Below, piece by piece: positions 9,767 to 60,961 of a stretch of DNA of 64,000 nt. The stretch is from the NCBI GenBank assembly GCA_965205975.1, contig OZ242195.1:3030656-3094655 (forward strand). Reading direction: 5' to 3'. Position numbers and translations under genes: made by a program. Source of the DNA: Candidatus Latescibacterota bacterium (GTDB lineage: Bacteria; Latescibacterota; UBA2968). Within the stretch, counting starts at the first letter, position 1; each line of letters starts with the position of its first letter. Below the pieces are notes generated by a model, which searched no databases, was not told the DNA's origin, and saw nothing but the letters and a program-made list of their open reading frames with translations.

Positions 9767-9768
9767 TC

Positions 9769-39363: not shown

Positions 39364-39384
39364 CTCAAAGTGTGCGTATGCATA

Positions 39385-42074: not shown

Positions 42075-42124
42075 TGGTTACCCTTGGCAATCAAGAGACG
42101 CTTGATCTCAGCTAACTTTCGCCA

Positions 42125-43219: not shown

Positions 43220-43556
43220 GAGGATAATCCTTTCTTATCGTTGGCTCGGTGCCCCCAGTCTGTTTACCGAGAACACCAAGCCAATCTTGAGCCTATCAAG
43301 CTCGGTTGCACACTTTTTTCTATGATTAAGATCAGCAATTAAGAGTACACCTAAAGCTCACTCAGAAGAAAGAAGCCAGTCTAAAGTTCATAGAAAAGAA
43401 AAATGATCGAATTCACTTGAGATAGAACTTTTGCCCAGAGATGTGTGGGTATCTGTCAATCCAGGCGACTTCGATTCTTTTTATGAATTAGCAATACCTT
43501 AGACTGAATGATGGGTAGCTAAAGATGCTCTCAAGCATCAGAGATTCCAGCGCTAA

Positions 43557-43766
43557 CTAGCCGCACGTAATAGTCTCCTCGTCATTATAGAAAATGTGAA
43601 GGCAGCTAGTATCGCACGTCACACTTCCCTCACATTGAATACAATCAAAGTAATGTGCTCCGTAAGAGTCTGTAAACCAATAATCAAGGCGGCTTCCACT
43701 GCCCTCATATCCATAGATACGCGGAGAAGACAGCCGAGACTGCACAGGCTTTGTCAAAGTTTTCAT
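43557..43766 (-). CDS. Small Cys-rich peptide (69 aa), putative precursor/bacteriocin-like peptide (paralog 2).
   Basis: MKTLTKPVQSRLSSPRIYGYEGSGSRLDYWFTDSYGAHYFDCIQCEGSVTCDTSCLHIFYNDEETITCG. Strong RBS AAGGAGGTGATA. The N-terminal about 25 residues are conserved with the peptide at 47826..48023, and the C-terminal part is divergent and Cys-rich. Confidence 0.6.
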   Translation of the reverse strand: MKTLTKPVQSRLSSPRIYGYEGSGSRLDYWFTDSYGAHYFDCIQCEGSVTCDTSCLHIFYNDEETITCG

Positions 43767-43784
43767 AGTATCACCTCCTTTCCT

Positions 43785-43993
43785 TATTGAGTCAAGTTAA
43801 AGTGTGCTTGCCCTTACTTGATAGGCTCAAGTAAAACCATTCTCTCAGGCTCACATTCCCAAATGCTTGAGCTTTGAACTGTTGCCTGCCCGCGCTGTCG
43901 CACGGCAGGCAGGTCTGCCGCCAATATTCGACTTGCCAGGGTCTGTCGGCGGCTTTTTATATTTAAAAATTCGGACAAATAGATAACCGCGTA
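43785..43993. repeat. About 190-bp structured repeat, copy 2. It forms the entire intergenic region between FtsX permease paralog 1 and peptide gene 2.
   Basis: See the copy at 39385-39572. About 95% identical. Confidence 0.85.
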
Positions 43994-46474: not shown

Positions 46475-46524
46475 TGGTTCTCCTCAGCAATTAGAGGATG
46501 CTTGAGCACACCTCACTTTTACCA

Positions 46525-47652: not shown

Positions 47653-47825
47653 GACTTATCACCCTTTCCCTATTGTAAAATCAGTGCTCCTGTAATATTT
47701 TGAGAGCACTGAGTCAATTTTGAGCCTATCAAGCTTGATTGCACACTTTTATTTTTTACTGAACATACTTCATTATGGCAATAAAAAAGATAAAATAGAA
47801 GACAGATCTCTTTAAAAGCCAGCCC

Positions 47826-48023
47826 TTATCCCCAAGACCGAGCACCAGGAGGAAAGCACTGCAAAACGGAACGCCAAACGAACTGGCACTCATACAAATC
47901 AACAGGGTTTCCATCTACAACGCCATCTCCAACGTCTACCCAGGCAAGTCCAACTCCAAACTCGTATCCATATATAGGCGACGCCATATTCTGAATCTTC
48001 ACTGGTTTGGTCAATGTTTTCAT
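47826..48023 (-). CDS. Small peptide (65 aa), putative precursor/bacteriocin-like peptide (paralog 1).
   Basis: MKTLTKPVKIQNMASPIYGYEFGVGLAWVDVGDGVVDGNPVDLYECQFVWRSVLQCFPPGARSWG. Same RBS and 5' leader DNA as peptide 2. The shared N-terminal block is MKTLTKPV...SP.IYGYE.G.G. Confidence 0.55.
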   Translation of the reverse strand: MKTLTKPVKIQNMASPIYGYEFGVGLAWVDVGDGVVDGNPVDLYECQFVWRSVLQCFPPGARSWG

Positions 48024-48111
48024 AATATCACCTCCTTTCCTTATTGCGTCAAATCAAAGTGTGCTTGTCCTTACTTGATAGGCTCAAGTAAAACCGTTCT
48101 GTTCTTAAATA

Positions 48112-48834
48112 TCAATAAATAAATGTAGATAAAGGATCTATATCAAAATCTTTGGCAATAATTTGAGAATAGGGCACTCCTTTAAGATGATCGTTCAGAA
48201 GTGGTTTTTGCAATCGCAAATGTCTTTGAATCACACCAAAAAAGAGGACTGTATTTTGAGGGCGATCTTTTGAGGATAGATGACAATGCGTTATGATATT
48301 CTTTTCATTGACAACAAAGATAGCCGGGGTGCGATGAGTAAGCATTTCATTTTGGAATAGCATGTTCTCCGTATCCGGAAGCAACTCGTAATGGAGGTTA
48401 AAACTCCTTTTGTATCTTTTTAACACGCCCGCAGGAGCATTGGCAAAAGCATAAATTGGAAAGCGTTTTGAGGGATCCTGATTTTGGTACACATGCTCCA
48501 GTAACTTTATCTGGGTGATTAGACATGGCTGACAGTCTTGTGGGCTGAAGACCAGAACCAGTCCTTTTCCTGTTTCGGAAAAGTCTGTTGAAATCCAGTC
48601 GCCATTTATGTTCTTCAATTCCAACTTCGGAAATTCCTGTCCTTGATAATTGGATGCGTAGGTAGAGGCATTTATATGCTCTTTGTAATCGGCATTCTCT
48701 ATTCGGAGTTCTCTGATTGTTTTCCAATGACCAGAGTTCGTATTTCTCAATTTCCATATCCCGAATAACGCAACCAGAAGAAGAACAGATAACAGGATAT
48801 TCAAAATCAGCGACATTTTCCGAATTTCTTGCAT
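48112..48834 (-). CDS. Membrane-anchored thioredoxin-like protein (TlpA/ResA family, CxxC).
   Basis: N-terminal TM LILNILLSVLLLVALFGIW. Redoxin motif LVLVFSPQDCQPCL. 240 aa. Confidence 0.7.
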   Translation of the reverse strand: MQEIRKMSLILNILLSVLLLVALFGIWKLRNTNSGHWKTIRELRIENADYKEHINASTYASNYQGQEFPKLELKNINGDWISTDFSETGKGLVLVFSPQDCQPCLITQIKLLEHVYQNQDPSKRFPIYAFANAPAGVLKRYKRSFNLHYELLPDTENMLFQNEMLTHRTPAIFVVNEKNIITHCHLSSKDRPQNTVLFFGVIQRHLRLQKPLLNDHLKGVPYSQIIAKDFDIDPLSTFIY

Positions 48835-48977: not shown

Positions 48978-50879
48978 TCAAAAAAAATCAACAACAACAT
49001 CGGCCATCTTTTTACGTCCTTCGGCACTAATTATCTCAGTCGCCGGAATGCGATGTGTTGATTCCAAGTTCAATATCGTTTGACAGATTTCCTCTCTACA
49101 AAGCGGTTGACTCACGACTGTGTTGACCGTGTGATTTACAATTTTTTTCTTATCGCTAAAAACGAGCAGAATAACTTTTCCTTTTCCCAGGCTCTCTAAA
49201 ACTCGGATATTTTCCTGTATAAATTCAGGCTCGTCGATAGAATTAACGAGCAAGACATAAGCATCGGGAACGGTTCCAAAAAGCAAGATCAATGAGGGCA
49301 AAGTGTAACTCTGAGATTTTTCGTAAAAGTTATGAGGTATGATACCGGACTGGCCACCAACGACGATGATATCCGGGTCTGATTGTTCGATACCGACCAT
49401 AGCGGAATTTAGAAGTGGAATGTGCAAATCCATGGGAATCTGGATGCTCTGATGCCCGTCATATCCATTTGGAAATGTAAAATCGAAATCAAATAATGCA
49501 GATTGGTGTTCTGTACCCAATTGACCAACTTTATAGCCAATTTTCTGTAATTGTTTTCTGAGTGCCAATTGAGCAGTGAACTTTCCTTGCTGCGGTCCTG
49601 TTCCAAACACGCCCAAGACAGGTTTCTGGCTTCTGCTTCTCCAATCATAAGTTTTGGTCAAAGCCTCATAAGTTGCAAAATCTATGGTCGGTGCTGCATA
49701 ATGCAGATGTTTTTCTTCAAATGCTTTGCTTATGCTTTCGTATTGCTTATTTGCAATGGGGCTCAGACTATACACATTCTTGTTATGCTTCAATGCCAAT
49801 TCCAAAGATTCTTGTAACACATCGCGTTTCTTAATCCGGCTAATTTCATCCAAATAGCCCAGAACGAGCGTATCGCCGTATTGCAGACAATCTTCCAAAT
49901 TTTGTTGTATGATCAAATTAGATTCGGACCCCCCAATAACCTCCCCACAATCTTTGCCTATGGTTCTTTTTCCAATAACATCAACTACCCTTGTAATTCT
50001 AAACGGCAATAACTCCCGAAACCGCACCAACCCATGCATTTCTTTGTTATAGGGGAAAATAACAGCCTCGTCTATCCAGCTTGGCGCGTTTGCCTTATTG
50101 AGATCGCGGATAGAAACATCTGAGCGAGATCTGGGCATCCCGCTCATCGCATAAGTGCTACTATCTACCAGGTCGGGACATTGACTTAAGGAATGTCTCT
50201 GCAAAATTTCTGTCAGATCGTTGAACGAGATACAACCATATTTCTCTATGATCAGAGCAATCAAGCCGGAAATATGCGGAGCCGCAAAGCTCGATCCCCC
50301 AATAAATATCTGTTTGCCTTCCAGCCAATTTAGGCGTTGACGATCACCCCGTGCGACAAACTGTATTTTTTCGTGCGGGTCATAAAAGTAATCAAACTTG
50401 CCATTAACTTTTCCTCCTGCTACGCCAAAGACATTGGGAAAAGACGCGGGAATACTCGGTTGTCCATCATTTGATGTCGCAGCAACAATGAACGTCTGGT
50501 GTTTGTGTGCAAAATCACAGGCCTCCTTCAAAACATCGCTATCTCTCTCATCCAGAGTACCTAAACTCAAATTGACAATGTGACAGTGATGTTCAACACA
50601 CCAGTAAATCGCCTTGCACAAAATGTCCATTTTCGTTATCAGTTCTGACTTAAAAATTTTGACAGGCAAAAATTCAGTATTTGGAGCTTTGGAGTGGATG
50701 ACGCCAATACAGGCTGTGCCGTGGCCTATCATATCTTGGTAATTTGAATCTTGATCGCCATTACAGAAACTGGTACCATTCAACACATGCACATTTTTTT
50801 TACCCGTATTAAAACCGCTATCAATCACGCCTACCCGGGTACCTGTACCTGTCAACCCAGAAAAAAAATGCTCCATCAA
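48978..50879 (-). CDS. S8-family (subtilisin-like) serine peptidase with no signal peptide or propeptide, fused to an about 330-aa C-terminal domain of unknown function.
   Basis: Catalytic triad blocks VGVIDSG (Asp), HGTACIGVI (His) and GGSSFAAPHISG (Ser), starting at residue about 15. The C-terminal domain contains the glycine-rich VLGVFGTGPQQGKFTAQLA. Confidence 0.75.
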   Translation of the reverse strand: MMEHFFSGLTGTGTRVGVIDSGFNTGKKNVHVLNGTSFCNGDQDSNYQDMIGHGTACIGVIHSKAPNTEFLPVKIFKSELITKMDILCKAIYWCVEHHCHIVNLSLGTLDERDSDVLKEACDFAHKHQTFIVAATSNDGQPSIPASFPNVFGVAGGKVNGKFDYFYDPHEKIQFVARGDRQRLNWLEGKQIFIGGSSFAAPHISGLIALIIEKYGCISFNDLTEILQRHSLSQCPDLVDSSTYAMSGMPRSRSDVSIRDLNKANAPSWIDEAVIFPYNKEMHGLVRFRELLPFRITRVVDVIGKRTIGKDCGEVIGGSESNLIIQQNLEDCLQYGDTLVLGYLDEISRIKKRDVLQESLELALKHNKNVYSLSPIANKQYESISKAFEEKHLHYAAPTIDFATYEALTKTYDWRSRSQKPVLGVFGTGPQQGKFTAQLALRKQLQKIGYKVGQLGTEHQSALFDFDFTFPNGYDGHQSIQIPMDLHIPLLNSAMVGIEQSDPDIIVVGGQSGIIPHNFYEKSQSYTLPSLILLFGTVPDAYVLLVNSIDEPEFIQENIRVLESLGKGKVILLVFSDKKKIVNHTVNTVVSQPLCREEICQTILNLESTHRIPATEIISAEGRKKMADVVVDFF

Positions 50880-50913: not shown

Positions 50914-51207
50914 CTATTCGGGAATAAGTGAATGTGTATCAGTGGCTAATTTCTCATATATATACTTCGCGACCGAATGTGTCGAAGTTAGCATTTCTTC
51001 TGTGAGTTCTTCGTCCTCTACGATCACATCAAATGCATCCTCTAAGCCTGTCACCAGGGCCAGGGTAGAAATAGAGTCGAGTATAGAATTCAAAGGAAGA
51101 TTGTCCCAATCTATATCATCGGATGTGACTTCACGGTCTAATGCCTTCAGAACCAAATCTTGAATCTGATTCTCAATCTCAGATATTGTTATTGTATTTT
51201 TTGTCAT
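50914..51207 (-). CDS. Acyl/peptidyl carrier protein-like small acidic protein.
   Basis: 97 aa and acidic. LDSISTLALVTGLEDAF resembles the phosphopantetheine-attachment DSL motif and its helix. Confidence 0.45.
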   Translation of the reverse strand: MTKNTITISEIENQIQDLVLKALDREVTSDDIDWDNLPLNSILDSISTLALVTGLEDAFDVIVEDEELTEEMLTSTHSVAKYIYEKLATDTHSLIPE

Positions 51208-51354: not shown

Positions 51355-52722
51355 TCAATATGATGTGTTCTTTAACGCTTCTTCAGCCTTTGCCAAGTTT
51401 ATATTCCGAACACATCCTGAACGGCATTCCCAGCCCACACCTTCATAGTCAGCAATAGCAGCGATTTGCTCTCGCAAAGGATCGTTGCATAAATCAAGAA
51501 CGCGCTTGCCCTTCAAGATGGGTAAAATCGGTATATGAAACGAGGAAATGGGATGTGCGATCAACAGTAGGGAACATTCACATAGCGACTTGAGGGATTT
51601 TGTCAATTGTCCCTGCCACATCTTTCGGGCATCACTTTGAATATAAGTCGGCTCCACGTCCAAGAGGCCCAACTCCACTGACGGGTCATATGCGATCACA
51701 TGATACCCTTCTGAGATGAGCATGTTTCCGAGTTTTACGAATGGACTATCCCTCAAGTCGCCTGTATTGGGCTTAAAACTCAAACCCAACATACCCAGTG
51801 TTCCTCGAACGGCAAGCGACCTTACCCTCCTTACCGTGGACCTGATATGAAGATCATTACTGGCGATGATATTGGTCAGCAGAGGTAATTCGGGTTCTTG
51901 TCGTCCGTTAGATAGCCGCAGGAGTGCTGTAAGATCCTTCGGGAGACAGGATCCTCCGAATGCGAATCCCGGCCTCATGTAGGCTTTTGACATATTGAGC
52001 TTGTTGTCTGAGCACACGACCTCCATTACTCTATTGCTGTCTATCCCGAGATATCTGCAAATATTCGATATCTCATTCGTGAAAGTAACCTTCATAGCAT
52101 GAAAAGCATTGCATACATACTTCACCATTTCAGCGATCTCGTATTCGGTAATGTACACCGGCCCAGCTTCACCGTAAATATCTAACACGCGCTGGTAATA
52201 ACCAGTCTTTGGAGCACCAATGATCCGAATCGGAGGATCATTCAGGTCCTCCATTGCGCTTCCCTCTCTCAAGAACTCCGGATAATACCAGACATTGCCA
52301 AAATTCCCGAAGGCTCCAGAGGCGATATTACGCGTCGTACCGGGCGGAACAGTGCTGCGCAAAACTATGTCAAACATGCCTCTTTTCTTTTTCACTATCT
52401 CTACCAGTGACGTTACGGCCTGATAAAGAAAACACAGATTTGGTACTCCGTCTTTCTCACCTCGCGGCGTACCTACACAGATAATCGCTACACTCGCATC
52501 CTCGACAGCTTTGAAGTAGTCAGTCGAAAGCTGGAGCCTCCCACTTCTAAGTGCTGAACTTAGCAGGTCGCTTACGCGGGGTTCTGGTTCAGGTTCACCG
52601 GCAAAAAGATGGTGGATTCTCTCCTGGGAGACATCCAGACCTGTGACGATATGACCTCGTTCAAGCAAGTAGGCAATATTCACAATGCCGACATGGCCCA
52701 AACCAACTACACAAATTTTCAT
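51355..52722 (-). CDS. NDP-sugar dehydrogenase (UDP-glucose / UDP-ManNAc / GDP-mannose dehydrogenase family).
   Basis: N-terminal Rossmann MKICVVGLGHVGIVNIAYLL and catalytic-Cys block FGGSCLPKDL. 455 aa. Confidence 0.8.
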   Translation of the reverse strand: MKICVVGLGHVGIVNIAYLLERGHIVTGLDVSQERIHHLFAGEPEPEPRVSDLLSSALRSGRLQLSTDYFKAVEDASVAIICVGTPRGEKDGVPNLCFLYQAVTSLVEIVKKKRGMFDIVLRSTVPPGTTRNIASGAFGNFGNVWYYPEFLREGSAMEDLNDPPIRIIGAPKTGYYQRVLDIYGEAGPVYITEYEIAEMVKYVCNAFHAMKVTFTNEISNICRYLGIDSNRVMEVVCSDNKLNMSKAYMRPGFAFGGSCLPKDLTALLRLSNGRQEPELPLLTNIIASNDLHIRSTVRRVRSLAVRGTLGMLGLSFKPNTGDLRDSPFVKLGNMLISEGYHVIAYDPSVELGLLDVEPTYIQSDARKMWQGQLTKSLKSLCECSLLLIAHPISSFHIPILPILKGKRVLDLCNDPLREQIAAIADYEGVGWECRSGCVRNINLAKAEEALKNTSY

Positions 52723-52861: not shown

Positions 52862-53863
52862 CTACTTGGTGAATTTCTGTTGTTCAATACAAGAGACTAT
52901 GACCTCCGTTGTGTCTTCCCACTTTTTATTTTCAGGTTTGACTCGCGGAACTCTATTGCTAAGATTTGCCAATATTTCTTTAGTCACCTTACCAAGATCA
53001 GGGATTATTAATTGTCCACTCTCGACTAATTCTCGGTTTATGCACATTTCCCTTCTTCCAAGATAGATAGTAGGTACTCCTAAGAGAGCCCCTTCCCTTG
53101 CAACAGTATCTCCAGTAGTTACCACCAGGGCTGAATAGTAAATCAGGGAATGGATACTGGGACAAGGTTCAACAACCTTTCGGAAATTGGGGTGTTCAAA
53201 CTCGAGATTTATTCCCCGTTCAAGGGAGGCTATGATGCTCATTCCAGTATTTAAAATCGCATTCGTCGCTTGCATAACTTCTTCCTGACCCAGGCGTCGA
53301 TAGTTCATGCTAATAGGTGCAACATACCTGACGAAAACATACTCTCCTGGCTGAACGCCATAATCACCTAAAATCTTCGGTTGCGGGACGAATCGGTTCA
53401 AGTAAGCCAACTCTTTGAACCCGTTGTATTGAATGATGTTTCTGCCTGCCACTCCGAGTGCTTCAGGTAAGACAAGTTGATGAGCGAATAAAAGACATGG
53501 CCAAAAATTTAGCTTGTATTCGAAGTCGTCATAAAAAATCACAGACCGTACGCGACAAAACCGCGAAACTATGCCCGAATAGAATCCACAACTCGCCAAA
53601 ACATCTGTCTCCATTTCGCATACTATCTTCTTGAGATCAACGACCCTTTCCCATACCCCAAACATCTTTCTAACACCAGTTCTATGAGCACCCATTACAC
53701 GAAAGGAACAAGGGAGGTCTGACTCCGCTATGGCAACAAGGTTACCTCTTTGCCTGACAACAGCCGACACATCGTGTCTCGCCTTCAACGATTTGATGGC
53801 TGAATTAAAAAAATTGAGATGTGCGACGTGAAGAATGTCAAAGAGAATCTTCAAAGGTAGCAT
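52862..53863 (-). CDS. DUF354-family protein (GT-B/epimerase-like fold, common in sugar-modification loci).
   Basis: The N-terminal LKILFDILHVAHLNFF matches the DUF354 (W)IDI.N.PHV.FF pattern. 333 aa. Confidence 0.45.
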   Translation of the reverse strand: MLPLKILFDILHVAHLNFFNSAIKSLKARHDVSAVVRQRGNLVAIAESDLPCSFRVMGAHRTGVRKMFGVWERVVDLKKIVCEMETDVLASCGFYSGIVSRFCRVRSVIFYDDFEYKLNFWPCLLFAHQLVLPEALGVAGRNIIQYNGFKELAYLNRFVPQPKILGDYGVQPGEYVFVRYVAPISMNYRRLGQEEVMQATNAILNTGMSIIASLERGINLEFEHPNFRKVVEPCPSIHSLIYYSALVVTTGDTVAREGALLGVPTIYLGRREMCINRELVESGQLIIPDLGKVTKEILANLSNRVPRVKPENKKWEDTTEVIVSCIEQQKFTK

Positions 53864-53903: not shown

Positions 53904-54137
53904 TTAATAGCCGTCATGTGCAAATACATACACATACCAAGAGGCCTGTTCTGGTCCTACCCCATTAGGGGGAGCTTCACAACCCCAAATTTTAGCGAGT
54001 CGAGTCACTTCTTGCTGGGCTTCCCTCTTAGAATTATAATGCGCCACAGTCTTCCAGTTTCTGAAGGAGCGGAACCTGGAACGCCAATATCGCTTTCGCT
54101 CGTCGGGATCCATCGTAATTCCAACTCGACAGGCCAT
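53904..54137 (-). CDS. Small basic hypothetical protein (77 aa) immediately 3' of the radical-SAM gene.
   Basis: ORF only, with reasonable codon usage. No recognisable family. Confidence 0.3.
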   Translation of the reverse strand: MACRVGITMDPDERKRYWRSRFRSFRNWKTVAHYNSKREAQQEVTRLAKIWGCEAPPNGVGPEQASWYVYVFAHDGY

Positions 54138-54154: not shown

Positions 54155-55594
54155 TTACGAGGTTATTTCCAGATTATATCGTCGCTGCAACAAAGACGCA
54201 TCCTCTTCTGCAATCTCCATACACATCTCCATCGCCAGTTCATAGCGATAACGTGTCTGTTCACAAGCAACAGGGTTGGGGTACATCGGGTCCCCCGTCG
54301 TCGTCCGAGCATCCCAAAGACATCCACCACCACACAGATTGCGCGCCCAGCATGTCTTGCACTCTGGGCGATTATTCACATTGAACTGCGCGTCAAAATG
54401 CTGCTGCTTTTCGCGATCAATACCCACAAACACATCACCCATCTTAAACTCGGGTGCATCGGCCAGACTCGAGCAAAAATAAATTGATCCATCTGCTGCA
54501 ATAGCCAGATACTGCTTACCACCCAGGCATCCATGACAGGATTTTGCGCGCGTCAGCAATTTCTGAATCCGCGGATCAAACTCTTCACTCTCTTCACCAT
54601 TCAGAATAGCTTTGAGCGCACGGCGGCTCCGCCTGTAAATTTGTTGTTTCAAAACAGGTATGTGTTCTTCCCGAATGGCATAAGGCGCATCGGGGGAGAC
54701 AACCGCCGGACCGATGAGCGCGTTATCAGTACCCAATGAGCGCAAATCATCGGCAATCTCATCCTCATCCATATCATACGCTGTCATAATAGCTTGCAGG
54801 TACACGCGCTCAGGTGCCTCAGCAGTCAATTTCTGTACATTCTTTGCCACGACATCATAAGTACCAGAACCATTGTGAAACTTGCGAATACGGTCCTGTG
54901 TCTTACGTCCGCCATCCAGGCTGACTTTAATTTGAAACTTTTCATCGATCAAGAACTGCTTCATCTCGTCGGTCAACAGCGTGCCATTGGTCACAATGCC
55001 AAAACCAACCTGCACTCCCAGGCACGCGCCCAGAGATTTGGCAAATGGGACAAGCTCTCTCATCAATGGAAAATTCAGAAGCGGCTCCCCGCCAAAAAAA
55101 TCAATCTGGCACCGCCCCAAAGCCTGAGCTTCGGTGATGATCCAGCGTATCGATTGCTCGGCAACATCGGGTTGCATCAGCATCGCCTTACCGCCATAAT
55201 CCCCGCCATGTGCAAAGCAATAAGCACACTGAATATTGCATGTATGCGAAACGTGCAGCGACACCTGCAAACGATCTGTCTGTGATACCCCACAAGCTGC
55301 CACCCCTTCTGTCGTCGGCACCTGGGACACCAGAAGCAATGCACCATCCGCAATCAACCCCACCTGTGCCAATTCCTCAATAGCCTCGGCAATTTCCTCT
55401 GCCTCGTATTGATCGGCCAACGTCTGGACAACCTGTGAAGCAGATAAGCCCTCGCAACATTCTAAAATTGATTTGAAAAGGGGATCCAGTTCAAAAAACA
55501 GACCTGTCTCAATCTGATAGACAATCGGCTGATTTTGCTCTTCAGTTTGAAAAAGATGTATGTCGCATTTCTGAATGCATAGCATGCCAGGCAC
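54155..55594 (-). CDS. Radical SAM / SPASM-domain enzyme (peptide-modifying maturase or anSME-like).
   Basis: CNIQCAYC (CxxxCxxC) radical-SAM cluster motif. C-terminal SPASM cysteine array CHGCLGGKQY...FCSS...CKTCWARNLCGGGCLWD. 479 aa. Confidence 0.8.
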   Translation of the reverse strand: MPGMLCIQKCDIHLFQTEEQNQPIVYQIETGLFFELDPLFKSILECCEGLSASQVVQTLADQYEAEEIAEAIEELAQVGLIADGALLLVSQVPTTEGVAACGVSQTDRLQVSLHVSHTCNIQCAYCFAHGGDYGGKAMLMQPDVAEQSIRWIITEAQALGRCQIDFFGGEPLLNFPLMRELVPFAKSLGACLGVQVGFGIVTNGTLLTDEMKQFLIDEKFQIKVSLDGGRKTQDRIRKFHNGSGTYDVVAKNVQKLTAEAPERVYLQAIMTAYDMDEDEIADDLRSLGTDNALIGPAVVSPDAPYAIREEHIPVLKQQIYRRSRRALKAILNGEESEEFDPRIQKLLTRAKSCHGCLGGKQYLAIAADGSIYFCSSLADAPEFKMGDVFVGIDREKQQHFDAQFNVNNRPECKTCWARNLCGGGCLWDARTTTGDPMYPNPVACEQTRYRYELAMEMCMEIAEEDASLLQRRYNLEITS

Positions 55595-55613
55595 TCCTCA
55601 GAACAGATACAAT

Positions 55614-55790
55614 TTACTCAGGCTGATCAAAATTGTCCCAATCGTCATCATCAGGGAACGGCATGGGGGGAACAGTAATAGGATAAGGGGTACAGCCAAC
55701 TTCAAAACTATCCGTCGTCTGATATGTGCTAATACCACCCTCTTTATCCATTGTTCCATTGATCAAGATCAACTTGCGTCGAGTCGTCAT
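55614..55790 (-). CDS. Unannotated 58-aa ORF, putative precursor peptide for the adjacent radical-SAM/SPASM enzyme.
   Basis: GGAGGATAAT-ATG RBS. Translation MTTRRKLILINGTMDKEGGISTYQTTDSFEVGCTPYPITVPPMPFPDDDDWDNFDQPE. Ends 20 nt before the rSAM start codon. Below the 60-aa cutoff of the ORF track. Confidence 0.55.
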   Translation of the reverse strand: MTTRRKLILINGTMDKEGGISTYQTTDSFEVGCTPYPITVPPMPFPDDDDWDNFDQPE

Positions 55791-55849
55791 ATTATCCTCC
55801 TTAAATACAAAAATCTAAATGTCGTCATTGTCTTCGCTCCGTTTATATC

Positions 55850-55864
55850 GCAAGATCCGTGCCT
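55850..55864 (-). promoter_or_regulatory. Sigma-54 (-24/-12) promoter upstream of the peptide and rSAM operon.
   Basis: The minus strand reads AGGCACGGATCTTGC, which fits GG-N10-GC with TTGC at -12 (consensus TGGCAC-N5-TTGC). About 60 nt upstream of the peptide ATG. Confidence 0.55.
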
Positions 55865-55880
55865 AATAATGCATTAGCAT

Positions 55881-55920
55881 AAAAAAAAGCACTTAAAAAC
55901 TCTCAAGTGCTTGAAAAAAC
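55881..55920 (-). terminator. Rho-independent terminator downstream of the sigma-54 activator gene.
   Basis: On the minus strand, AAGCACUUGAGAGUUUUUAAGUGCUU followed by U8. Flanked by A/T runs on both sides. Confidence 0.6.
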
Positions 55921-55970: not shown

Positions 55971-55999
55971 ATATGTGTACCTAATAGATACACATATAA
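55971..55999. promoter_or_regulatory. Palindrome ATATGTGTA-N9-TACACATAT, candidate enhancer (UAS) for the sigma-54 activator.
   Basis: Perfect 9-bp inverted arms about 110-140 bp upstream of the sigma-54 promoter, in an extremely AT-rich region. Confidence 0.4.
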
Positions 56000-56103
56000 C
56001 CGTTCATTTAGATAAAATATGCATAACCGATTGATTAATATAAAAATAAATTAAAGTGCATCTAAATGATACATTATTGTAAAATGATACACCCATTCAA
56101 CAT

Positions 56104-59100
56104 CTATCTCAACCCCAGACGATTCATCTTTCTATACAAGCTGGCGCGCACCAACCCCAGTTCTTCGGCCGTACGCTTAATATTACCCTCGTATTTTTCG
56201 AGCGCATCCATAATCAACCGTTTCTCATACTCCTGCATACTATCTTTTAAATGTCCCTGGTATTCGACAGAGACACCCGACATCGCGTGGCCGACAGCTT
56301 CCGAAAACAAATCGGGCGTAATTGCACCATCTTCTTCTACCAATGCAACCGCACGCCGAATCTCATTCTCCAACTCGCGCACATTACCCGGCCAGTTGTA
56401 ATTTGTAAGTGCCCTGATTGCACCTACTGTCAGCCCGCCAACCGACTTGTTTGCCTCTTCCTTTGCCCGAATGAGCAAATGTTCGGCCAATAACGGCACA
56501 TCTTCCATGCGTTCTCGTAAAGGCGGCATATCGATCTGAATCACGTGCAACCGATAATACAAATCTTCGCGGAAAGAGCCTTTTTCTACTTCTTTTTTTA
56601 AGTCTCGATTGGTCGCTGCAATAATGCGTACATCTACTGCGCGATCCTCTGTTTCTCCCACACGCCTAATCTCTCCTTCTTGCAACACCCGCAACAAACT
56701 CCTTTGCAATGGTGGCGGGGCATCGCCGATTTCATCTAAAAAGACCGTACCCCCATTAGCCGTCTCAAAAACCCCCTTATGATCTTCAGTCGCGCCAGTA
56801 AACGCCCCTTTTTTATGACCAAACAACTCACTCTGCAACAGCTCTGGTGAAAGGGCAGCACAATTTTGCGACAAAAAACGCTGGTCTTTACGTGTACTAT
56901 TGTAGTGTATGGAACGCGCAGCTAATTCTTTGCCAGTACCTGTTTTGCCTTGCACAAGCACGGGAATATCGCTTTTTGCCGCACGTTCTATAAGCCGGTA
57001 GATCGCCTGCATCGCATCACTTTGCCCAAACAGATCGCCAAGCTGGTGCTGTCTTTCGACCTCTTGCTGCAAATATCGCGCTTTCTCTTCCAATTGTTCG
57101 TACATCCTCGCATTGACCAGTGCTACACCCACCAGATTCGCAAATGCTTGTAAAAACGTCTGGTCTGCTTCAGAAAATGCGTTGCCTATGCCGCGATGAT
57201 CCACATATAGGGCACCCATTACACCTTCGCTAACATGAAATAGAGGCACACACAATACAGACCGAATGTTGTAGTCTATCACACTCTGATATTGATTTAG
57301 CCTATCGTCTGTTTGTGCATCAAGGCTCAAAACGGGTTCATTTGTTTCAATAACCCGACGAATAATACCCCCACTCAATTCTTCTGCATCATTCGATTCT
57401 AAATTGTGGTGGCGCACCACATCAACTACAAAGTCTTTTGGAGTCTCATTTTTAATCGCAACAATCACCCGCTCTGCTGAATAGACAGCCAACAAATTGC
57501 CCAAAGTTCCATCCAATAGCACCTTGACATCGTGCTCTGTTGTTAATTCCTGGCTCATATCATAGAGCAAATTCCAACGATCAACAGACAACGCACCAAC
57601 TGGAACCTCAGAACTGGATACGGTATCCTCACCGCGATGGAGCGTTGGAGCGGCATCCCTGCCGCGACCATCTTCGTCGCGAGATAATTGATTTAATAAC
57701 ACCTGTGTTTTCTCCAAAAAATAGGACATTTCCATTTCCTCAAACGCCTGTTTTGCCGCTTCGAGATGTGCTTGCGCTTTTGGCATATCATCGCGCTGGA
57801 GATAAAACTCCCCAGCCATCAGCAATGCCCGCGCCCAGTGGTCGCCTTTGGATTCTCTGCGACATTCAATTGCCTGCTCAAAAGCCTCTTCAGCCTCAGC
57901 AATTCGCCCTGCCTGAGCAAAAGCCGCACCAATACCGCAATATACCAGGGGCAATATGCCTGTGTACATACCCGATATTTGTTGCGTACCTTCTTTGGCT
58001 TTTTCAGCCCATTCAAGTGCTGTTTCACCATTTCCCATTCTCGCAGCAGCCGTTGCCGCAATTGCATAAGCGCGATAGATATAATCTTTTCGCGGTGTTT
58101 CCAAAAATCGCTCTGATGAAATCTCGGCATATTCCAATGCCTCGGCAAAATCATCGCGTTCCAGAGCCAATTCCCCAAGCCATAGGAAATTTGCTGCTTC
58201 CCAATACACACCCCCTCGCTTCTGCCACTCACCAATGACCTCATAACAAACGGCTTCAGCACCATTGAAATCCCCCAAATAAAAATAAATTCTTTGAAGT
58301 GCATTGAGTGCCCAAACGCGATGGTGCTCTAAACCAAGTTGTCTAAAGATCTTTACAACAGTTTCTAAATAGCCCTTAGCTGTCTCAAATCGAAATTCCA
58401 CTAATGCGGCCTGGCCTTCTCGTCCTTGTATAAAAGCCTGGTTTTGTGGATCTCCCGACTCACGGAGTTTCTCTATTTCCCGACGCATATACGCAATTGA
58501 TTCTTCGTGCCGACCAGACACATCACACAAATAAGACAAGCTGCTTAACGCCTGAATTTCGCCATCGAAATCACCGAGTTCACGATAAAGCTGCAATGCC
58601 TCCAGCATATATCCTTCTGCAATTTCACCATGTTGAAGTACGCTGTGAATCTCACCCTGGTCGTTTAAAATACGCGCTTTCAAATCTTTCCGATCAGCGG
58701 GCAATAATGCATTTGCTTCGTCTAAAAGTTTTAGTGCGCAATTGTATTCACTACAATTGCGAAACACATCTGCATAATCGCACAAAAAATCGATAGCATC
58801 TGCAGGTAATTCAAAAACGTCATCCGCTGTCCAGTCCCTCACTGCCTCGAACCGTCTCAATGCCTGGCGATACGCTTGTACCTCCAATGCTTTTTTACCC
58901 GCCAGACACATATATTTCACAGCCTTATCTCGTTCTTCTGCCGCCGCAAAATGATCCGCCAATTCTTCCGTCAATTCTTCTGCATCACCCGTCTCTTCCA
59001 GAGCATTGCCAATTTCTCGATGCAACAGACGCCGCCGCACATCTTGCATGCGGTCATAAATTGCACGCCGACACAAATCCTGTGAAAATCGATAGCGGTC

Positions 59101-60186
59101 TTCATCCTCTCCACAAGCAGCCAAAAGCCCTTCCGCAATCAAGTCATCCAGCATATCCAGCAATTCTAACTCATCACCGCGCCAAACTGCAGCCAATAAT
59201 TCGAAAGAAAAATCACTTAAAAAAACACAGGCGTATTCCAGCACCCGCTGTTGCATAGCAGGCAGGGTTGCTATGCGCCTGTACAAAACCTCTGAAAAGT
59301 CATTGGATAATAATGTTTCGGGAAACTCTCCCCACTGCCAATCGCCAGACACATCTTGCCGAACCACATCGGCATGCACCAGTGTCCTTATCGCCTCCAC
59401 GACAAACAGGGGTTGTCCGCCTGTTTCTCTGAACAGGGTTTGCAATGCATCCGACGGTATGGATCGCTCCCCTAACATCGACGCCGCTAAATATCCCACC
59501 TCTTCTTGTTGTAGATACTCCAACTGCATCTGGGTCGCTTCAGCAAATTCATTACTATGTATAAAATTCTCAATTTCCTCTGAAAGCGGTTCCAGATTAG
59601 ACCATCGGCAAGTCAGACATAACAAAAACGGGCACGGTTCTGGATCGCGCAACACATACTGCAAAAATTCCAGAGTCAATTCATCAAGCCATTGAATATC
59701 TTCCAAACACAACACAATGGGCTGTTTCTGTCGCAGACTTTTTAGTAACTGCAACCAGCGCTCCATAACAGAAAACTTGTCGGTCTCTAATGAATCGGGC
59801 AACTCTGCCATCAAATCCGTCGTCCCTTGAAAAGCCCTGATCAACGCACCGTATATTTGTCCGCCCTCTTCCTGCCCTGCGCCCTTCAAACATAGAAAAT
59901 CGTGGATCAGAGCGTCGCCCAACAGTTCTTCGGCCAGTCTCGATTTACCTACTCCCGCCTCACCCGAGATCAAAACCACGCGCTGCTTGCCAGCCTGTAC
60001 ATCCTGTAACATCGCACTCAGTATCTTCATTTCAGATTCCCGCCCGACAAATTGTGGGCGCACAACTTTTCTATGCACATCGCGCTGCTCGTCCTCCAGC
60101 AGCACAAGCTCCGATGGTAAGGCACGTACCAGTTCCTCTGCCGACTGATAACGATCAACACGCTCCTTTGCCAGCAACTTCAGCAC
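56104..60186 (-). CDS. Sigma-54-dependent transcriptional activator with a giant N-terminal sensor: STAND/AAA ATPase, TPR-like array, GAF, sigma-54 AAA+, Fis-type HTH. It is the C-terminal 1360 aa of a frameshift-split kinase fusion.
   Basis: P-loop VVLISGEAGVGKSRLAEELL. A long TPR-like helical-repeat region. GAF-like segment about residues 880-1030. Sigma-54 interaction domain VLVQGKTGTGKELAARSIHYNS...GAFTGA...GGTVFLDEIGD. C-terminal HTH IKRTAEELGLVRASLYRKMNRLGL. The first residues LKLLAKERVDRYQSAEELVRAL are the end of a protein-kinase domain. Confidence 0.75.
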   Translation of the reverse strand: MLKLLAKERVDRYQSAEELVRALPSELVLLEDEQRDVHRKVVRPQFVGRESEMKILSAMLQDVQAGKQRVVLISGEAGVGKSRLAEELLGDALIHDFLCLKGAGQEEGGQIYGALIRAFQGTTDLMAELPDSLETDKFSVMERWLQLLKSLRQKQPIVLCLEDIQWLDELTLEFLQYVLRDPEPCPFLLCLTCRWSNLEPLSEEIENFIHSNEFAEATQMQLEYLQQEEVGYLAASMLGERSIPSDALQTLFRETGGQPLFVVEAIRTLVHADVVRQDVSGDWQWGEFPETLLSNDFSEVLYRRIATLPAMQQRVLEYACVFLSDFSFELLAAVWRGDELELLDMLDDLIAEGLLAACGEDEDRYRFSQDLCRRAIYDRMQDVRRRLLHREIGNALEETGDAEELTEELADHFAAAEERDKAVKYMCLAGKKALEVQAYRQALRRFEAVRDWTADDVFELPADAIDFLCDYADVFRNCSEYNCALKLLDEANALLPADRKDLKARILNDQGEIHSVLQHGEIAEGYMLEALQLYRELGDFDGEIQALSSLSYLCDVSGRHEESIAYMRREIEKLRESGDPQNQAFIQGREGQAALVEFRFETAKGYLETVVKIFRQLGLEHHRVWALNALQRIYFYLGDFNGAEAVCYEVIGEWQKRGGVYWEAANFLWLGELALERDDFAEALEYAEISSERFLETPRKDYIYRAYAIAATAAARMGNGETALEWAEKAKEGTQQISGMYTGILPLVYCGIGAAFAQAGRIAEAEEAFEQAIECRRESKGDHWARALLMAGEFYLQRDDMPKAQAHLEAAKQAFEEMEMSYFLEKTQVLLNQLSRDEDGRGRDAAPTLHRGEDTVSSSEVPVGALSVDRWNLLYDMSQELTTEHDVKVLLDGTLGNLLAVYSAERVIVAIKNETPKDFVVDVVRHHNLESNDAEELSGGIIRRVIETNEPVLSLDAQTDDRLNQYQSVIDYNIRSVLCVPLFHVSEGVMGALYVDHRGIGNAFSEADQTFLQAFANLVGVALVNARMYEQLEEKARYLQQEVERQHQLGDLFGQSDAMQAIYRLIERAAKSDIPVLVQGKTGTGKELAARSIHYNSTRKDQRFLSQNCAALSPELLQSELFGHKKGAFTGATEDHKGVFETANGGTVFLDEIGDAPPPLQRSLLRVLQEGEIRRVGETEDRAVDVRIIAATNRDLKKEVEKGSFREDLYYRLHVIQIDMPPLRERMEDVPLLAEHLLIRAKEEANKSVGGLTVGAIRALTNYNWPGNVRELENEIRRAVALVEEDGAITPDLFSEAVGHAMSGVSVEYQGHLKDSMQEYEKRLIMDALEKYEGNIKRTAEELGLVRASLYRKMNRLGLR

Positions 60187-60961
60187 AATTTGTTGCGTCT
60201 CTTCGGGAACAGCGATATTGAACTTCGCCTATTGGTGGAGGTGACTCTCGAATATGCTTCATAATAACAGATATGGGATTTTGTCCAGAAAAGGGCGATG
60301 CGTCCGTGAGGACTTCGTATAAAATCACACCCAATGAGTACAAATCTGACCGATGATCCACCCACAACCCCTTACCCTGCTCTGGCGACATATATTCTGC
60401 CGTACCAATCGTTGCACCCGTCTGAGTAATGGAAGCACTGTGCAAATGTCTGAATTTCGCCAATCCCAGGTCCAGAATCGTGGTTTCAATCCCCTCTTTT
60501 GTCTCCAAAACCATAATATTGGATGGCTTGAGATCGCGATGCACTGCACCCTGAGCGTGGACATAAGCCAATCCATCGGCAATTTGTTGTATCAAGTCAA
60601 AAAAGTGAGACGTCCGGAATTGCTCTAACAGTACACGATCGGCAATAATTTTTTCCAATGTCTTTCCGGGCAAATATTCCATTGTAAAATAGGGACGGTC
60701 TTTGGCAAAGCCCCAGGTGTATGTGCGAACCAGACGCGGGTGCTGGAATCGGTTCAACACCTGAAACTCTCTGTGAAAACGACGGCGCACAGCCTGCTCA
60801 TCCATCATTTCATTCAAAATTTTGAGCGCGCAATCCCGATCTTGCTCCAGGTCCAAAACCCGATACACTTCACCCATGCCCCCGGCTCCCAGGTGCGCCT
60901 GGATCTGGTATCTTTTGTCGAGAATTGTGCCAATTTCGAACATACGCGTTATTCTTTGCAA
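60155..60961 (-). CDS. Ser/Thr protein kinase catalytic domain (Hanks-type), N-terminal part of the same gene as 56104..60186, across a frameshift.
   Basis: GAGGMGEVYRV...ALK (ATP-binding Lys), HRDLKPSNIM, DLGLAKF and GTAEYMSPEQ. The last about 20 residues of this frame are non-kinase-like. The kinase C-lobe end (AKFNIAVPEETQQIVLKLLAKERVDRYQSAEEL) continues in the frame of the downstream ORF. Confidence 0.8.
   Translation of the reverse strand: MQRITRMFEIGTILDKRYQIQAHLGAGGMGEVYRVLDLEQDRDCALKILNEMMDEQAVRRRFHREFQVLNRFQHPRLVRTYTWGFAKDRPYFTMEYLPGKTLEKIIADRVLLEQFRTSHFFDLIQQIADGLAYVHAQGAVHRDLKPSNIMVLETKEGIETTILDLGLAKFRHLHSASITQTGATIGTAEYMSPEQGKGLWVDHRSDLYSLGVILYEVLTDASPFSGQNPISVIMKHIRESPPPIGEVQYRCSRRDATNCAEVAGKGAC

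What the first reader, a model, noticed from the sequence alone, without database searches (positions are those of the whole stretch)
54155..55790. Unannotated precursor-like peptide gene directly upstream of the radical-SAM/SPASM gene
The 55790..55614 minus-strand ORF has GGAGGA 6 nt before ATG and ends 20 nt before the rSAM start. It falls just under the 60-aa ORF threshold, so it is easily missed.

The rSAM has CxxxCxxC plus a full SPASM cysteine array and is about 100 aa longer than typical anSME. The window also contains two Cys-type sulfatases and an aerobic FGE. That makes an anSME role possible but not necessary.
Basis: partly seen in the sequence, partly recalled or inferred. Interest (0 to 1): 0.7.

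Follow-up and report, generated by a model that had tools for sequence, protein, structure and literature searches.

The report
Precursor peptide for radical-SAM maturase
The 58-codon ORF is a real, conserved gene: the precursor of a ribosomal peptide natural product that the adjacent radical-SAM enzyme modifies, in uncultured Latescibacterota, and the enzyme is not a sulfatase maturase.

Summary
The ORF at 55790..55614(-) encodes a 58-aa peptide behind a strong ribosome-binding site.

**Evidence that the gene is real**
- An intact homologue lies directly upstream of the radical-SAM (rSAM) gene in all 30 close Latescibacterota loci, and in 4 divergent ones.
- Codon evolution fits a ribosomal natural-product (RiPP) precursor: leader dN/dS 0.38, C-terminal VPPLPFPDDDDWD 0.11, one invariant Cys, and a 7-residue hypervariable patch at 1.06.

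**The enzyme**
- It has an N-terminal PqqD-type peptide-recognition domain. This accounts for the "extra 100 aa".
- It aligns full-length to the SCIFF thioether maturase CteB (212 bits).
- It scores 225-267 bits on the SCIFF, QhpD and PapB models, but only 113 on the anaerobic sulfatase maturase (anSME) model (cut-off 349).

**Regulation and layout**
- A sigma-54 promoter (GGCACG-N4-TTGC) precedes the peptide in all 35 loci, next to a ~1600-aa kinase-STAND-TPR-GAF-sigma54 activator.
- This regulator-peptide-maturase module occurs 2-3 times per genome.
- The window also carries a separate accessory cluster: ACP-like protein, subtilisin-DUF1611 fusion, redoxin, beta-propellers and exporters.

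**Verdict**
This is a new, lineage-restricted member of the ranthipeptide-like rSAM RiPPs. The product is probably a Cys-thioether macrocycle, but the chemistry is inferred, not shown.

The parts
56104..60961 (-). Dedicated regulator: Ser/Thr kinase, STAND (AAA_16) NTPase, TPR, GAF, sigma-54 AAA+ domain and Fis-type HTH. It is a single ~1600-aa protein in most loci. In this window it is split by a frameshift near 60221-60228.
   Evidence: Pfam and NCBIfam domains. tblastn with the fused 1603-aa L002 protein hits two frames. It is conserved directly upstream of the peptide in nearly all loci that extend far enough upstream, including loci whose rSAM is only 50% identical.
55971..56092 (-). Putative upstream activator sites. 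Two imperfect palindromes lie at 56092..56056 and a clean one (ATATGTGTA-N9-TACACATAT) at 55997..55971. A conserved IHF-like match (AATCAATCGGTTA) lies at 56036..56024.
   Evidence: Alignment of 25 upstream regions. The positions are conserved, and the half-site sequences differ between locus types. Function is inferred.
55879..55912 (-). Conserved hairpin plus T8, probably the terminator of the regulator gene, 16-24 nt upstream of the -24 element.
55850..55863 (-). Sigma-54 promoter, -24 GG / -12 GC: GGCACGGATCTTGC. The predicted transcription start is near 55839, giving a 5' UTR of about 48 nt.
   Evidence: The window has 2 exact matches against 0.13 expected. A match lies upstream of the peptide in 35 of 35 Latescibacterota loci.
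55614..55801 (-). Ribosome-binding site (AGGAGGA, 55801..55795) and the 58-aa precursor peptide gene (55790..55614). The peptide has a leader at ~1-31 (LxLINGxxDxEGxI), an invariant Cys33, a hypervariable patch at 34-40, and a conserved VPPLPFP-DDDD-WDxFDQ tail.
54155..55585 (-). RRE-rSAM-SPASM peptide maturase, 476 aa from the ATG at 55585 (alternative GTG at 55594). The RRE is at about 55522..55367, the CxxxCxxC motif at 55240..55217, and SPASM at about 54529..54260.
53904..54137 (-). A 77-aa ORF that starts 17 nt after the rSAM stop. It is a lineage-specific small protein of unknown role.
   Evidence: It follows the rSAM in about 10 loci at 64-87% identity. Only 3 protein clusters exist in the database. 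It has no Pfam or NCBIfam hit.
50914..51207 (-). Acyl-carrier-protein-like 97-aa protein with an LDSIS motif. It is the first gene of the accessory cluster and follows a GC-rich hairpin after the preceding gene.
   Evidence: Weak ACP model hits, best 35.6 bits at E = 9e-9. It sits next to the S8-DUF1611 gene in L021, L029, L030, L058, L059 and L060. Hairpin seen.
48978..50879 (-). Fusion of a QhpE-like subtilisin and a DUF1611/TIGR04066 domain. The subtilisin keeps its D/H/S triad and is the candidate leader protease.
   Evidence: NCBIfam QhpE 140.7 bits and TIGR04066 122.9 bits. Triad motifs visible. The AF2 model of the C-terminal half has pLDDT 91, and its best folds are the DUF1611 proteins 2G0T and 2OBN and the N-acetyltransferase DgcN 7XRJ.
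38875..48834 (-). Rest of the accessory cluster. It comprises a membrane redoxin (48834..48112), two pairs of DUF5128 six-bladed beta-propeller plus MacB/FtsX permease (47652..39573), and a 162-aa stump of an ABC exporter (39363..38875) that abuts an IS256-family transposase.
   Evidence: The same gene set occurs in L021, L029, L030 and L058.

Best explanation
The small ORF encodes the precursor of a ribosomally synthesised, post-translationally modified peptide (RiPP). The downstream gene encodes its dedicated radical-SAM/SPASM maturase.

Proposed sequence of events:
1. The adjacent giant kinase-STAND-TPR-GAF-sigma54 activator binds palindromes upstream and fires a sigma-54 promoter.
2. The transcript begins with the precursor gene, followed by the maturase gene.
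3. The maturase's N-terminal PqqD-like RRE docks the conserved leader (LxLINGxxDxEGxI).
4. The rSAM/SPASM core then cross-links the single invariant Cys33. The most likely product is a thioether to a side-chain carbon of the invariant acidic run (Asp47-50). That would close a ring of about 15-17 residues containing the hypervariable patch and the PPLPFP segment.
5. A QhpE-like subtilisin, fused to a DUF1611 domain and paired with an ACP-like protein, removes the leader. It may also cap the new N-terminus.
6. ABC and MacB-type transporters export the product.

What is shown and what is inferred:
- Shown: gene reality, conservation, co-location, domain content and promoter motif.
- Inferred: that the peptide is the substrate, the nature and position of the cross-link, and the roles of the accessory genes.
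For: **Peptide**
- 28 homologous protein clusters, all 47-70 aa.
- An intact ORF directly upstream of the rSAM in 31 of 31 close loci.
- A second subfamily with the same LxLING..D..GRI leader in the divergent loci L029, L030, L032 and L034.
- dN/dS is 0.38 in the leader, 1.06 in residues 34-40 and 0.11 in the C-terminal block.
- Cys33, P41, P44, F45, P46, D48 and D49 are invariant across the 29 sequences of alignment A1.

**Enzyme**
- PqqD/RRE above the Pfam gathering score, plus Radical_SAM and SPASM.
- Best NCBIfam matches are the thioether formers: SCIFF maturase 266.5 bits, QhpD 254.7, nif11 rSAM 246.3, PapB 224.5. The anSME model gives 113.4.
- Full-length alignment to CteB (5WGG), E = 1.7e-61.
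- The nearest relatives outside the phylum carry canonical SCIFF peptides in the same upstream position.

**Regulation**
- GGCACG-N4-TTGC is conserved in 35 of 35 loci, with an adjacent sigma-54 activator (PF00158, 250 bits).
- The upstream region shows a conserved layout of palindromes, IHF-like site and ribosome-binding site.

**Accessory set**
- It recurs with the module at 39% protein identity in L029 and L030.
- It matches the gene content of the P. polymyxa cluster: TIGR04068 rSAM, TIGR04066, TIGR04069 ACP-like protein, subtilisin and ABC transporter (PMC10731318).

**Chemistry precedent**
- QhpD and PapB link Cys to Asp/Glu. PapB tolerates large Cys-carboxylate spacing (PMC7876137; PMC9413430).
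Against: - No product or expression data exist.
- The rSAM is below the curated cut-off of every named family, so its chemistry cannot be transferred by homology.
- The poly-Asp run is absent from the subfamily-2 peptides (C.WP.FPILPPPMT). If the chemistry is shared, the acceptor is not always Asp. A Thr sits at a similar distance there.
- This particular copy may be decaying. The regulator is frameshifted and the ABC exporter is truncated by a transposase.
- The accessory cluster lies far from the modules in at least one genome (L058). An S8-DUF1611/ACP cassette also occurs without any rSAM (L060). Its link to this peptide therefore rests on co-occurrence only.
Confidence: 0.8

Rival explanations
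1. Same precursor and maturase pair, but different chemistry from a non-alpha (ranthionine) Cys thioether. Options include an alpha-carbon sactionine, a C-C or C-O cross-link on the conserved F45 or W51, epimerisation, or anSME-like oxidation of the peptide Cys (often followed by x-P) to formylglycine.
For: - The rSAM is below the cut-off of all thioether equivalogs.
- Besides Cys and Asp, the invariant residues include F45 and three Pro.
- The subfamily-2 cores lack the Asp run.
- Weaker hits exist to cyclophane, darobactin and dynobactin-type maturases, at 74-99 bits.
Against: - The best matches by a wide margin are Cys-thioether formers.
- The only residue type invariant across both peptide subfamilies within the core is Cys.
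- Trp51 is replaced by Arg in 5 of 31 peptides.
Confidence: 0.15
2. The rSAM is an anaerobic sulfatase-maturating enzyme serving the Cys-type sulfatases in the window, and the small ORF is incidental.
For: Two Cys-type sulfatases (CMPSR and CTASR) are in the window. anSMEs are also rSAM/SPASM enzymes.
Against: - TIGR03942 gives 113 bits against a cut-off of 349. PRK13758 gives 75 against 441.
- PDB anSME gives 62 bits against 212 for CteB.
- An RRE domain is present.
- The peptide is conserved with the rSAM in every locus.
- The sulfatases are 21-30 kb away, and none of the annotated neighbour families at other loci is a sulfatase.
- An FGE-domain protein is already present.
Confidence: 0.02
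3. The peptide is the precursor of a protein-derived cofactor or small enzyme subunit (like QhpC, PqqA or MftA), not of a secreted natural product.
For: The rSAM resembles QhpD (254.7 bits) and the protease resembles QhpE (140.7 bits). An ABC exporter is present, as in the qhp operon (PMC7876137).
Against: - No QhpA, QhpB or QhpG-like genes were found among the neighbours scanned.
- Trp is not invariant.
- There are 2-3 divergent copies per genome, with a core evolving at dN/dS of about 1. That is not expected for a cofactor.
Confidence: 0.03

Closest known systems
SCIFF peptides and their maturase (CteA/CteB, TIGR03973/TIGR03974), the founding ranthipeptides
   Same: - The precursor lies immediately upstream of the maturase.
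- The architecture is the same: N-terminal RRE, rSAM core and SPASM.
- This is the best sequence match: 266.5 bits on the family model and 211.8 bits full-length to the 5WGG structure.
- The nearest relatives outside the phylum are true SCIFF systems.
   Different: - The score is below the 425-bit cut-off.
- The peptide has one Cys instead of six.
- No profile similarity to SCIFF peptides (hhalign probability 0.07).
- A Pro-rich, poly-Asp tail and a hypervariable patch are present.
- The system is sigma-54-controlled and multi-copy.
QhpC/QhpD/QhpE/QhpF maturation of the quinohemoprotein amine dehydrogenase gamma subunit
   Same: The rSAM resembles QhpD, which forms Cys-to-Asp/Glu thioethers. 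The system also has a QhpE-like intracellular subtilisin that removes a leader, and an ABC exporter.
   Different: - All scores are below cut-off (254.7 against 453; 140.7 against 165).
- No dehydrogenase subunits and no QhpG.
- The Trp is not conserved.
- The peptide is much shorter, with a single Cys.
PapA/PapB (freyrasin) and the Paenibacillus/Clostridium TIGR04065-04069 cassette
   Same: - PapB-type Cys-Asp chemistry is the best model for an invariant Cys plus an invariant Asp run.
- The cassette of rSAM, TIGR04066 protein, ACP-related protein, subtilisin and ABC transporter is mirrored here.
   Different: - PapB scores 224.5 bits against a cut-off of 340.
- The substrate has one Cys about 14 residues from the Asp run, instead of six CX3D motifs.
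- The subtilisin and the TIGR04066/DUF1611 domain are fused.
- The accessory genes form a separate cluster that can lie far from the precursor modules.

Membership tests
Anaerobic sulfatase-maturating enzyme (anSME, TIGR03942 / PRK13758) | Scores at or above the curated family cut-off | tested here: not met
   113.4 bits against 349.45, and 74.7 against 441. PDB anSME 61.7 bits.
Anaerobic sulfatase-maturating enzyme (anSME, TIGR03942 / PRK13758) | Acts on sulfatases, so genomic association with sulfatase genes is expected. Lacks a leader-peptide recognition domain (the latter from general knowledge). | tested here: not met
   An RRE is present (PF05402, 27.5 bits against 23.4). The conserved neighbours are the regulator and the peptide. 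The neighbour clusters I annotated are not sulfatases. The window's sulfatases are 21-30 kb away.
RiPP precursor / RRE-dependent rSAM-SPASM maturase pair (generic) | A short ORF next to the maturase, with a conserved leader and a more variable core | tested here: met
   Present in 31 of 31 close loci. dN/dS is 0.38 in the leader and 1.06 in the variable patch.
RiPP precursor / RRE-dependent rSAM-SPASM maturase pair (generic) | The maturase has a PqqD-like RRE, a CxxxCxxC motif and a full SPASM Cys array | tested here: met
Ranthipeptide class | A thioether from Cys sulfur to a non-alpha carbon of the acceptor residue | not testable with these tools
   Needs MS and NMR of the product. Only homology to CteB, QhpD and PapB supports it.
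SCIFF system (TIGR03973 peptide / TIGR03974 maturase) | Maturase above cut-off, and a peptide with six Cys in about 45 residues | tested here: not met
   266.5 bits against 425. The peptide has one Cys. hhalign against a SCIFF alignment gives probability 0.07.
QHNDH maturation (QhpC/D/E) | QhpD and QhpE above cut-off; QhpA, QhpB and QhpG present; conserved Cys-Trp pair for the CTQ cofactor | tested here: not met
   254.7 bits against 453, and 140.7 against 165. No such neighbours were found. Trp is replaced by Arg in 5 of 31 peptides.
PapB / freyrasin | PapB equivalog score and repeated CX3D motifs in the precursor | tested here: not met
   224.5 bits against 340. The peptide has a single Cys, with the nearest Asp of the run about 14 residues away.
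TIGR04066 / ACP-related peptide-maturation cassette | A TIGR04066 (DUF1611-fold) protein next to an ACP-related protein, with a subtilisin and an rSAM | tested here: inconclusive
   TIGR04066 gives 122.9 bits against a cut-off of 200. PF07755 passes at 38.7 bits against 25. The fold is confirmed as DUF1611/DgcN-like. The ACP-like neighbour matches only weakly. The gene content matches PMC10731318.
Sigma-54-dependent promoter with a dedicated enhancer-binding protein | -24 GG / -12 GC with canonical spacing, conserved upstream of the gene, and an adjacent AAA+ sigma-54 activator | tested here: met
   The presence of rpoN in the genome and actual sigma-54 dependence were not tested.

The most novel reading that the evidence does not exclude
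Each regulator-peptide-maturase module could be a private peptide-signalling circuit. In this reading, the cross-linked peptide is displayed on a constant Cys/Pro-rich/poly-Asp scaffold. Its hypervariable loop is sensed by the TPR region of its own 1600-aa kinase-STAND-sigma54 regulator.

That would give 2-3 orthogonal auto-inducing or kin-recognition channels per symbiont genome, all served by one interchangeable maturase that evolves in concert.

The hints are weak:
- Distance in the peptide variable region correlates with the regulator's TPR segment (Mantel r = 0.32, p about 0.0015). It does not correlate with the physically nearer HTH segment, nor with the rSAM.
- The activator-site half-sites differ by locus type.
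- rSAM paralogues in the same genome are more alike than same-type orthologues in other genomes.
Probability: 0.1. Interest if true: 0.8.

Novelty: new member of a known kind. Interest (0 to 1): 0.45.

Why it matters
- It turns an unnamed 58-codon ORF into the key gene of a RiPP system in an uncultured, invertebrate-associated phylum. For this phylum, only automated "ranthipeptide/RRE" calls have been published (PMC12993501).
- The family is a natural library. One highly conserved maturase is paired with dozens of precursors that differ mainly in a 7-residue loop. That is attractive for peptide engineering and for finding the cross-link chemistry of a maturase clade lying between SCIFF, QhpD and PapB.
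- It corrects a plausible mis-annotation: the rSAM is not an anSME.
- It gives a testable sigma-54 regulatory circuit for a RiPP.

Tried and rejected
- **Peptide family models:** Pfam and NCBIfam give no hit for the peptide.
- **SCIFF homology:** profile-profile comparison of the peptide family with SCIFF peptides shows no similarity, so it is not a degenerate SCIFF.
- **Wider relatives:** a profile search of 1.84 billion representative proteins found only 14 hits, several of them frame-shifted copies. There is no wider family.
- **Known RNAs:** Rfam over the whole window finds nothing. The conserved hairpin is not a known RNA.
- **Second copy:** tblastn finds no second peptide copy in the window.
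- **CTQ-like Cys-Trp or Trp/Phe cyclophane:** rejected as the main model, because Trp is not invariant.
- **Glu30 as acceptor (ExxC):** unlikely, because Lys or Gly replaces it in several loci.
- **DUF354 and UDP-glucose dehydrogenase genes** (52862..53863 and 51355..52722): not counted as parts. They are absent from the stand-alone accessory cluster in L058, and a GC-rich hairpin separates them from the ACP-like gene.
- **The 77-aa ORF:** its family is tiny and unnamed, so no function can be assigned.
- **Carboxylate-binding Arg of PapB (Arg372):** could not be mapped, because no PapB sequence or alignment was available.
Full report
**1. Observation**

It encodes MTTRRKLILINGTMDKEGGISTYQTTDSFEVGCTPYPITVPPMPFPDDDDWDNFDQPE.

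GGAGGA lies at 55800..55795, 4 nt before the ATG. The downstream rSAM ORF can start at the GTG at 55594, but that GTG overlaps the rSAM's own GAGGAG. The ATG at 55585, 8 nt after that ribosome-binding site, gives the 476-aa length seen in most related loci.

The rSAM has CxxxCxxC (C119/C123/C126) and a complete SPASM cysteine array. The window does contain two Cys-type sulfatases (CMPSR at 31850..33403; CTASR at 22793..24499) and an FGE-domain protein (8797..9648).

**2. Is the small ORF a gene?**

Yes, on four lines of evidence.

- A search of 5.8 billion proteins returned 28 clusters of 47-70 aa peptides at 60-90% identity, with E-values down to 1e-29. Four are in NCBI records, unnamed.
- A genome scan with the rSAM found 38 Latescibacterota loci. 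One is labelled Poribacteria and one only "uncultured bacterium". Many come from complete MAG chromosomes, and there are two or three loci per genome.
- In all 30 close loci with sequence upstream of the rSAM, plus the window, an intact homologous ORF sits directly upstream. The window holds only one copy.
- Codon analysis across these 31 genes gives dN/dS of 0.38 for residues 2-32, 1.06 for residues 34-40 and 0.11 for residues 41-54.

Across the 29 sequences of alignment A1, Cys33, P41, P44, F45, P46, D48 and D49 are invariant.

The pattern is therefore a constrained leader, one fixed Cys, a freely diverging 7-residue patch and a tightly constrained VPPLPFP-DDDD-WDxFDQ tail.

Four divergent loci (rSAM 50-53% identical) carry a second peptide subfamily. 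It has the same L-x-L-I-N-G-x-x-D-x-x-G-x-I leader and a C-x-W-P-x-F-P-I-L-P-P-P-M-T core. L034 uses a TTG start.

A profile search of 1.84 billion representative proteins found only 14 hits, several of them frame-shifted copies. The family is narrow.

**3. What is the rSAM?**

- Pfam finds PqqD (the RiPP recognition element fold) at residues 25-76, above the gathering score, followed by Radical_SAM and SPASM.
- NCBIfam ranks SCIFF maturase (266.5 bits), QhpD (254.7), nif11-type rSAM (246.3), a ScfB-related orphan (235.2) and PapB (224.5). All are below their curated cut-offs. The anSME model scores 113.4 against 349.45.
- Against solved structures, the SCIFF thioether synthase CteB (5WGG) aligns over residues 22-455 at E = 1.7e-61. 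anSME reaches only 61.7 bits, over the core.
- The "extra 100 aa" is therefore the RRE, which argues for a peptide substrate.
- The closest relatives outside the phylum (about 30% identity, Bacillota) all have canonical SCIFF peptides immediately upstream. The window's peptide family shows no profile similarity to SCIFF.

The enzyme is a separate clade within the CteB/QhpD/PapB group, with its own precursor family.

**4. Regulation**

An exact sigma-54 promoter, GGCACGGATCTTGC, lies at 55863..55850. It puts a predicted transcription start about 48 nt before the ATG. Only two such matches occur in the window, against 0.13 expected. A match to the -24/-12 pattern precedes the peptide in all 35 loci examined, including the divergent ones.

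Immediately upstream is a gene for a protein of about 1600 aa. It combines a Ser/Thr kinase, a STAND NTPase, TPR, GAF, a sigma-54 AAA+ domain (PF00158, 250 bits) and an HTH. It is conserved with the peptide and rSAM even at 40% identity.

The alignment of the intergenic regions shows a fixed layout, in this order:
1. regulator stop codon;
2. two palindromes;
3. an IHF-like site;
4. a third palindrome (in the window ATATGTGTA-N9-TACACATAT, 55997..55971);
5. a hairpin with a T8 run;
6. the -24/-12 promoter;
7. AAGGAGGA;
8. ATG.

The palindrome half-sites differ between locus types. In the window the regulator is split by a frameshift near 60221-60228.

**5. Genomic organisation**

The invariant unit is regulator, promoter, peptide and rSAM. 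What follows differs by locus:
- a 77-aa lineage-specific ORF, as in the window;
- a ~300-aa methyltransferase-like gene in 14 loci, absent from the window;
- unrelated housekeeping genes.

In the window, and in the syntenic L021, an accessory cluster lies further downstream. It comprises:
- an ACP-like protein (50914..51207);
- a fusion of a QhpE-like subtilisin with an intact triad and a TIGR04066/DUF1611 domain (48978..50879);
- a membrane redoxin;
- two pairs of DUF5128 beta-propeller plus MacB/FtsX permease;
- an ABC exporter, here truncated beside an IS256-family transposase.

The same set accompanies the divergent modules L029 and L030. In genome OZ244847.1 it stands alone, about 185 kb from one module and megabases from the other. 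This suggests it serves all modules in trans.

The S8-DUF1611 plus ACP pair is widespread, with at least 580 homologues. It occurs with an rSAM in a Melioribacteraceae genome. It also occurs without an rSAM, next to five tandem small proteins.

A published P. polymyxa cluster contains the same parts as separate genes: TIGR04068 rSAM, TIGR04066, TIGR04069 ACP-related protein, subtilisin and ABC transporter (PMC10731318).

An AF2 model of the C-terminal half of the fusion (pLDDT 91) matches the DUF1611 structures 2G0T and 2OBN and the N-acetyltransferase DgcN. An acyl-transfer role working with the ACP-like protein is conceivable but unproven.

**6. Mechanism**

*Shown.* A conserved, translated-looking precursor gene. 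An RRE-bearing rSAM/SPASM enzyme of the thioether-forming clade. A sigma-54 promoter with its activator. A recurring set of protease, ACP-like protein and exporters.

*Inferred.* The RRE binds the LxLING leader. The enzyme links the sole invariant Cys to an acceptor carbon.

The invariant Asp run, 14-17 residues downstream, is the favoured acceptor. QhpD and PapB make Cys-Asp/Glu thioethers, and PapB tolerates large Cys-carboxylate spacing (PMC7876137; PMC9413430). In subfamily 2 a Thr sits at a similar distance, and CteB links Cys to Thr (the latter from my own knowledge).

The ring would enclose the hypervariable patch and the PPLPFP stretch. Leader removal by the subtilisin domain and export by the ABC and MacB systems follow by analogy with QhpE and QhpF.

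My confidence that this is a precursor-maturase pair is about 0.8. That the modification is a Cys thioether, about 0.5. That the acceptor is Asp, about 0.35.

**7. Rivals**

- An anSME role is effectively excluded.
- A cofactor or small-subunit role like QhpC is unlikely. Partner genes are absent, Trp is not invariant, and there are multiple divergent copies.
- Different cross-link chemistry on the same peptide remains open.

**8. Novelty**

Surveys of sponge Latescibacterota MAGs list antiSMASH "ranthipeptide" and "RRE-containing" clusters without analysing them (PMC12993501; PMC11832590). The only paper holding all four terms "sigma-54", "radical SAM", "RiPP" and "precursor peptide" is an Aneurinibacillus genome-mining paper, which I did not read.

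I file this as a new member of a known kind: RRE-dependent rSAM/SPASM RiPPs of the ranthipeptide type. Its unusual traits are:
- a single-Cys, Pro-rich, poly-Asp scaffold with a hypervariable loop;
- modular multi-copy organisation, each module with its own giant sigma-54 activator;
- a separable accessory cluster.

**9. Further observations on module evolution**

- rSAM paralogues within one genome are more alike (93.2%) than same-type orthologues in other genomes (91.1%). This suggests concerted evolution. The regulators do not behave this way.
- Peptide variable-region distances correlate with the regulator's TPR segment (r = 0.32, p about 0.0015). They do not correlate with the nearer HTH segment or with the rSAM.

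These hints underlie the speculative "private signalling circuit" reading.

Noticed in passing
window 60221-60228 (regulator gene 56104..60961, minus strand): The kinase-STAND-TPR-GAF-sigma54 regulator is one fused ~1600-aa ORF in most related loci. Here it is split into two overlapping frames. Several other loci (L013, L020, L024, L028) also have split regulators. This is either an assembly indel or real decay.
   Followed up: partly
window 37640..39363, minus strand: An IS256/Mutator-family transposase (37640..38824) abuts a 162-aa N-terminal stump of the ABC exporter (38875..39363). The intact gene is 655 aa in L058, where rhodanese and MauE genes follow it. Those two genes are missing here.
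   Followed up: partly
window 8797..11999, minus strand: The FGE-sulfatase-domain protein (8797..9648) sits next to a YcaO-like gene (9769..10779) and a TPR protein (10776..11999), beside multihaem cytochromes (4619..5830 and 5983..8784). It may belong to a different system rather than being a plain sulfatase FGE.
   Followed up: no
window 20418..20431, minus strand: This is the only other exact GGCACG-N4-TTGC match in the window. It lies about 100 nt upstream of a DUF6807 gene (20318..19230) and is a second candidate sigma-54 promoter.
   Followed up: no
window 14176..16071, plus strand: A 631-aa protein fuses an AhpC/redoxin domain to the two copper type II (PHM-like) monooxygenase domains.
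   Followed up: no
window 55971..56092, and the aligned regions of L002-L035: The three palindromic sites upstream of the sigma-54 promoter keep their positions but change half-site sequence by locus type (GTGCATCC / GTGTAAAC / GTGTATC). The regulator's HTH end is among its most variable parts (identity 0.76-0.77). This suggests each paralogous regulator has its own operator.
   Followed up: partly
rSAM genes of L002-L035: rSAM paralogues in the same genome are more similar (93.2%) than same-position orthologues in other genomes (91.1%), unlike the regulators. This suggests gene conversion of the maturase. Peptide distances are uncorrelated with rSAM distances (r = -0.04).
   Followed up: partly
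L004 2480..2949 and L021 9535..10001: In these two loci a 52-aa ORF (MSVQ.LIKKRDHLAYLSLLYAIWG...) is inserted between the peptide and the rSAM. The peptides there end early, at ...DDDDWDDF and ...DDDDDDF.
   Followed up: no
L002 11587..12495, and 13 other loci: A ~300-aa class-I methyltransferase-like gene follows the rSAM in 14 loci, including the syntenic L021. It is absent from the window, where the 77-aa ORF is followed after 40 nt by a DUF354 gene.
   Followed up: no
L060 (OZ244960.1, 2325357-2347276): A second S8-DUF1611 plus ACP cassette occurs in the same genome as L021. It lies next to five tandem 101-131-aa small proteins, HlyD and ABC transporter genes and a C39-like peptidase, with no rSAM. 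The cassette appears to be a general peptide-processing unit.
   Followed up: no
window 55614..55700 (peptide residues 31-58): The conserved VPPLPFP-DDDD segment resembles eukaryotic proline-rich ligand motifs (PPLP for WW domains; FP...acidic for EVH1). This comes from memory only. It is possibly relevant for a symbiont of sponges and corals.
   Followed up: no
P0035, P0037, P0039, P0040, P0042 (public peptide homologues): Several database homologues are frame-shifted versions of the peptide. For example, PFPDDDD reads as PFPMMTIG. These are either sequencing errors or decaying copies.
   Followed up: no
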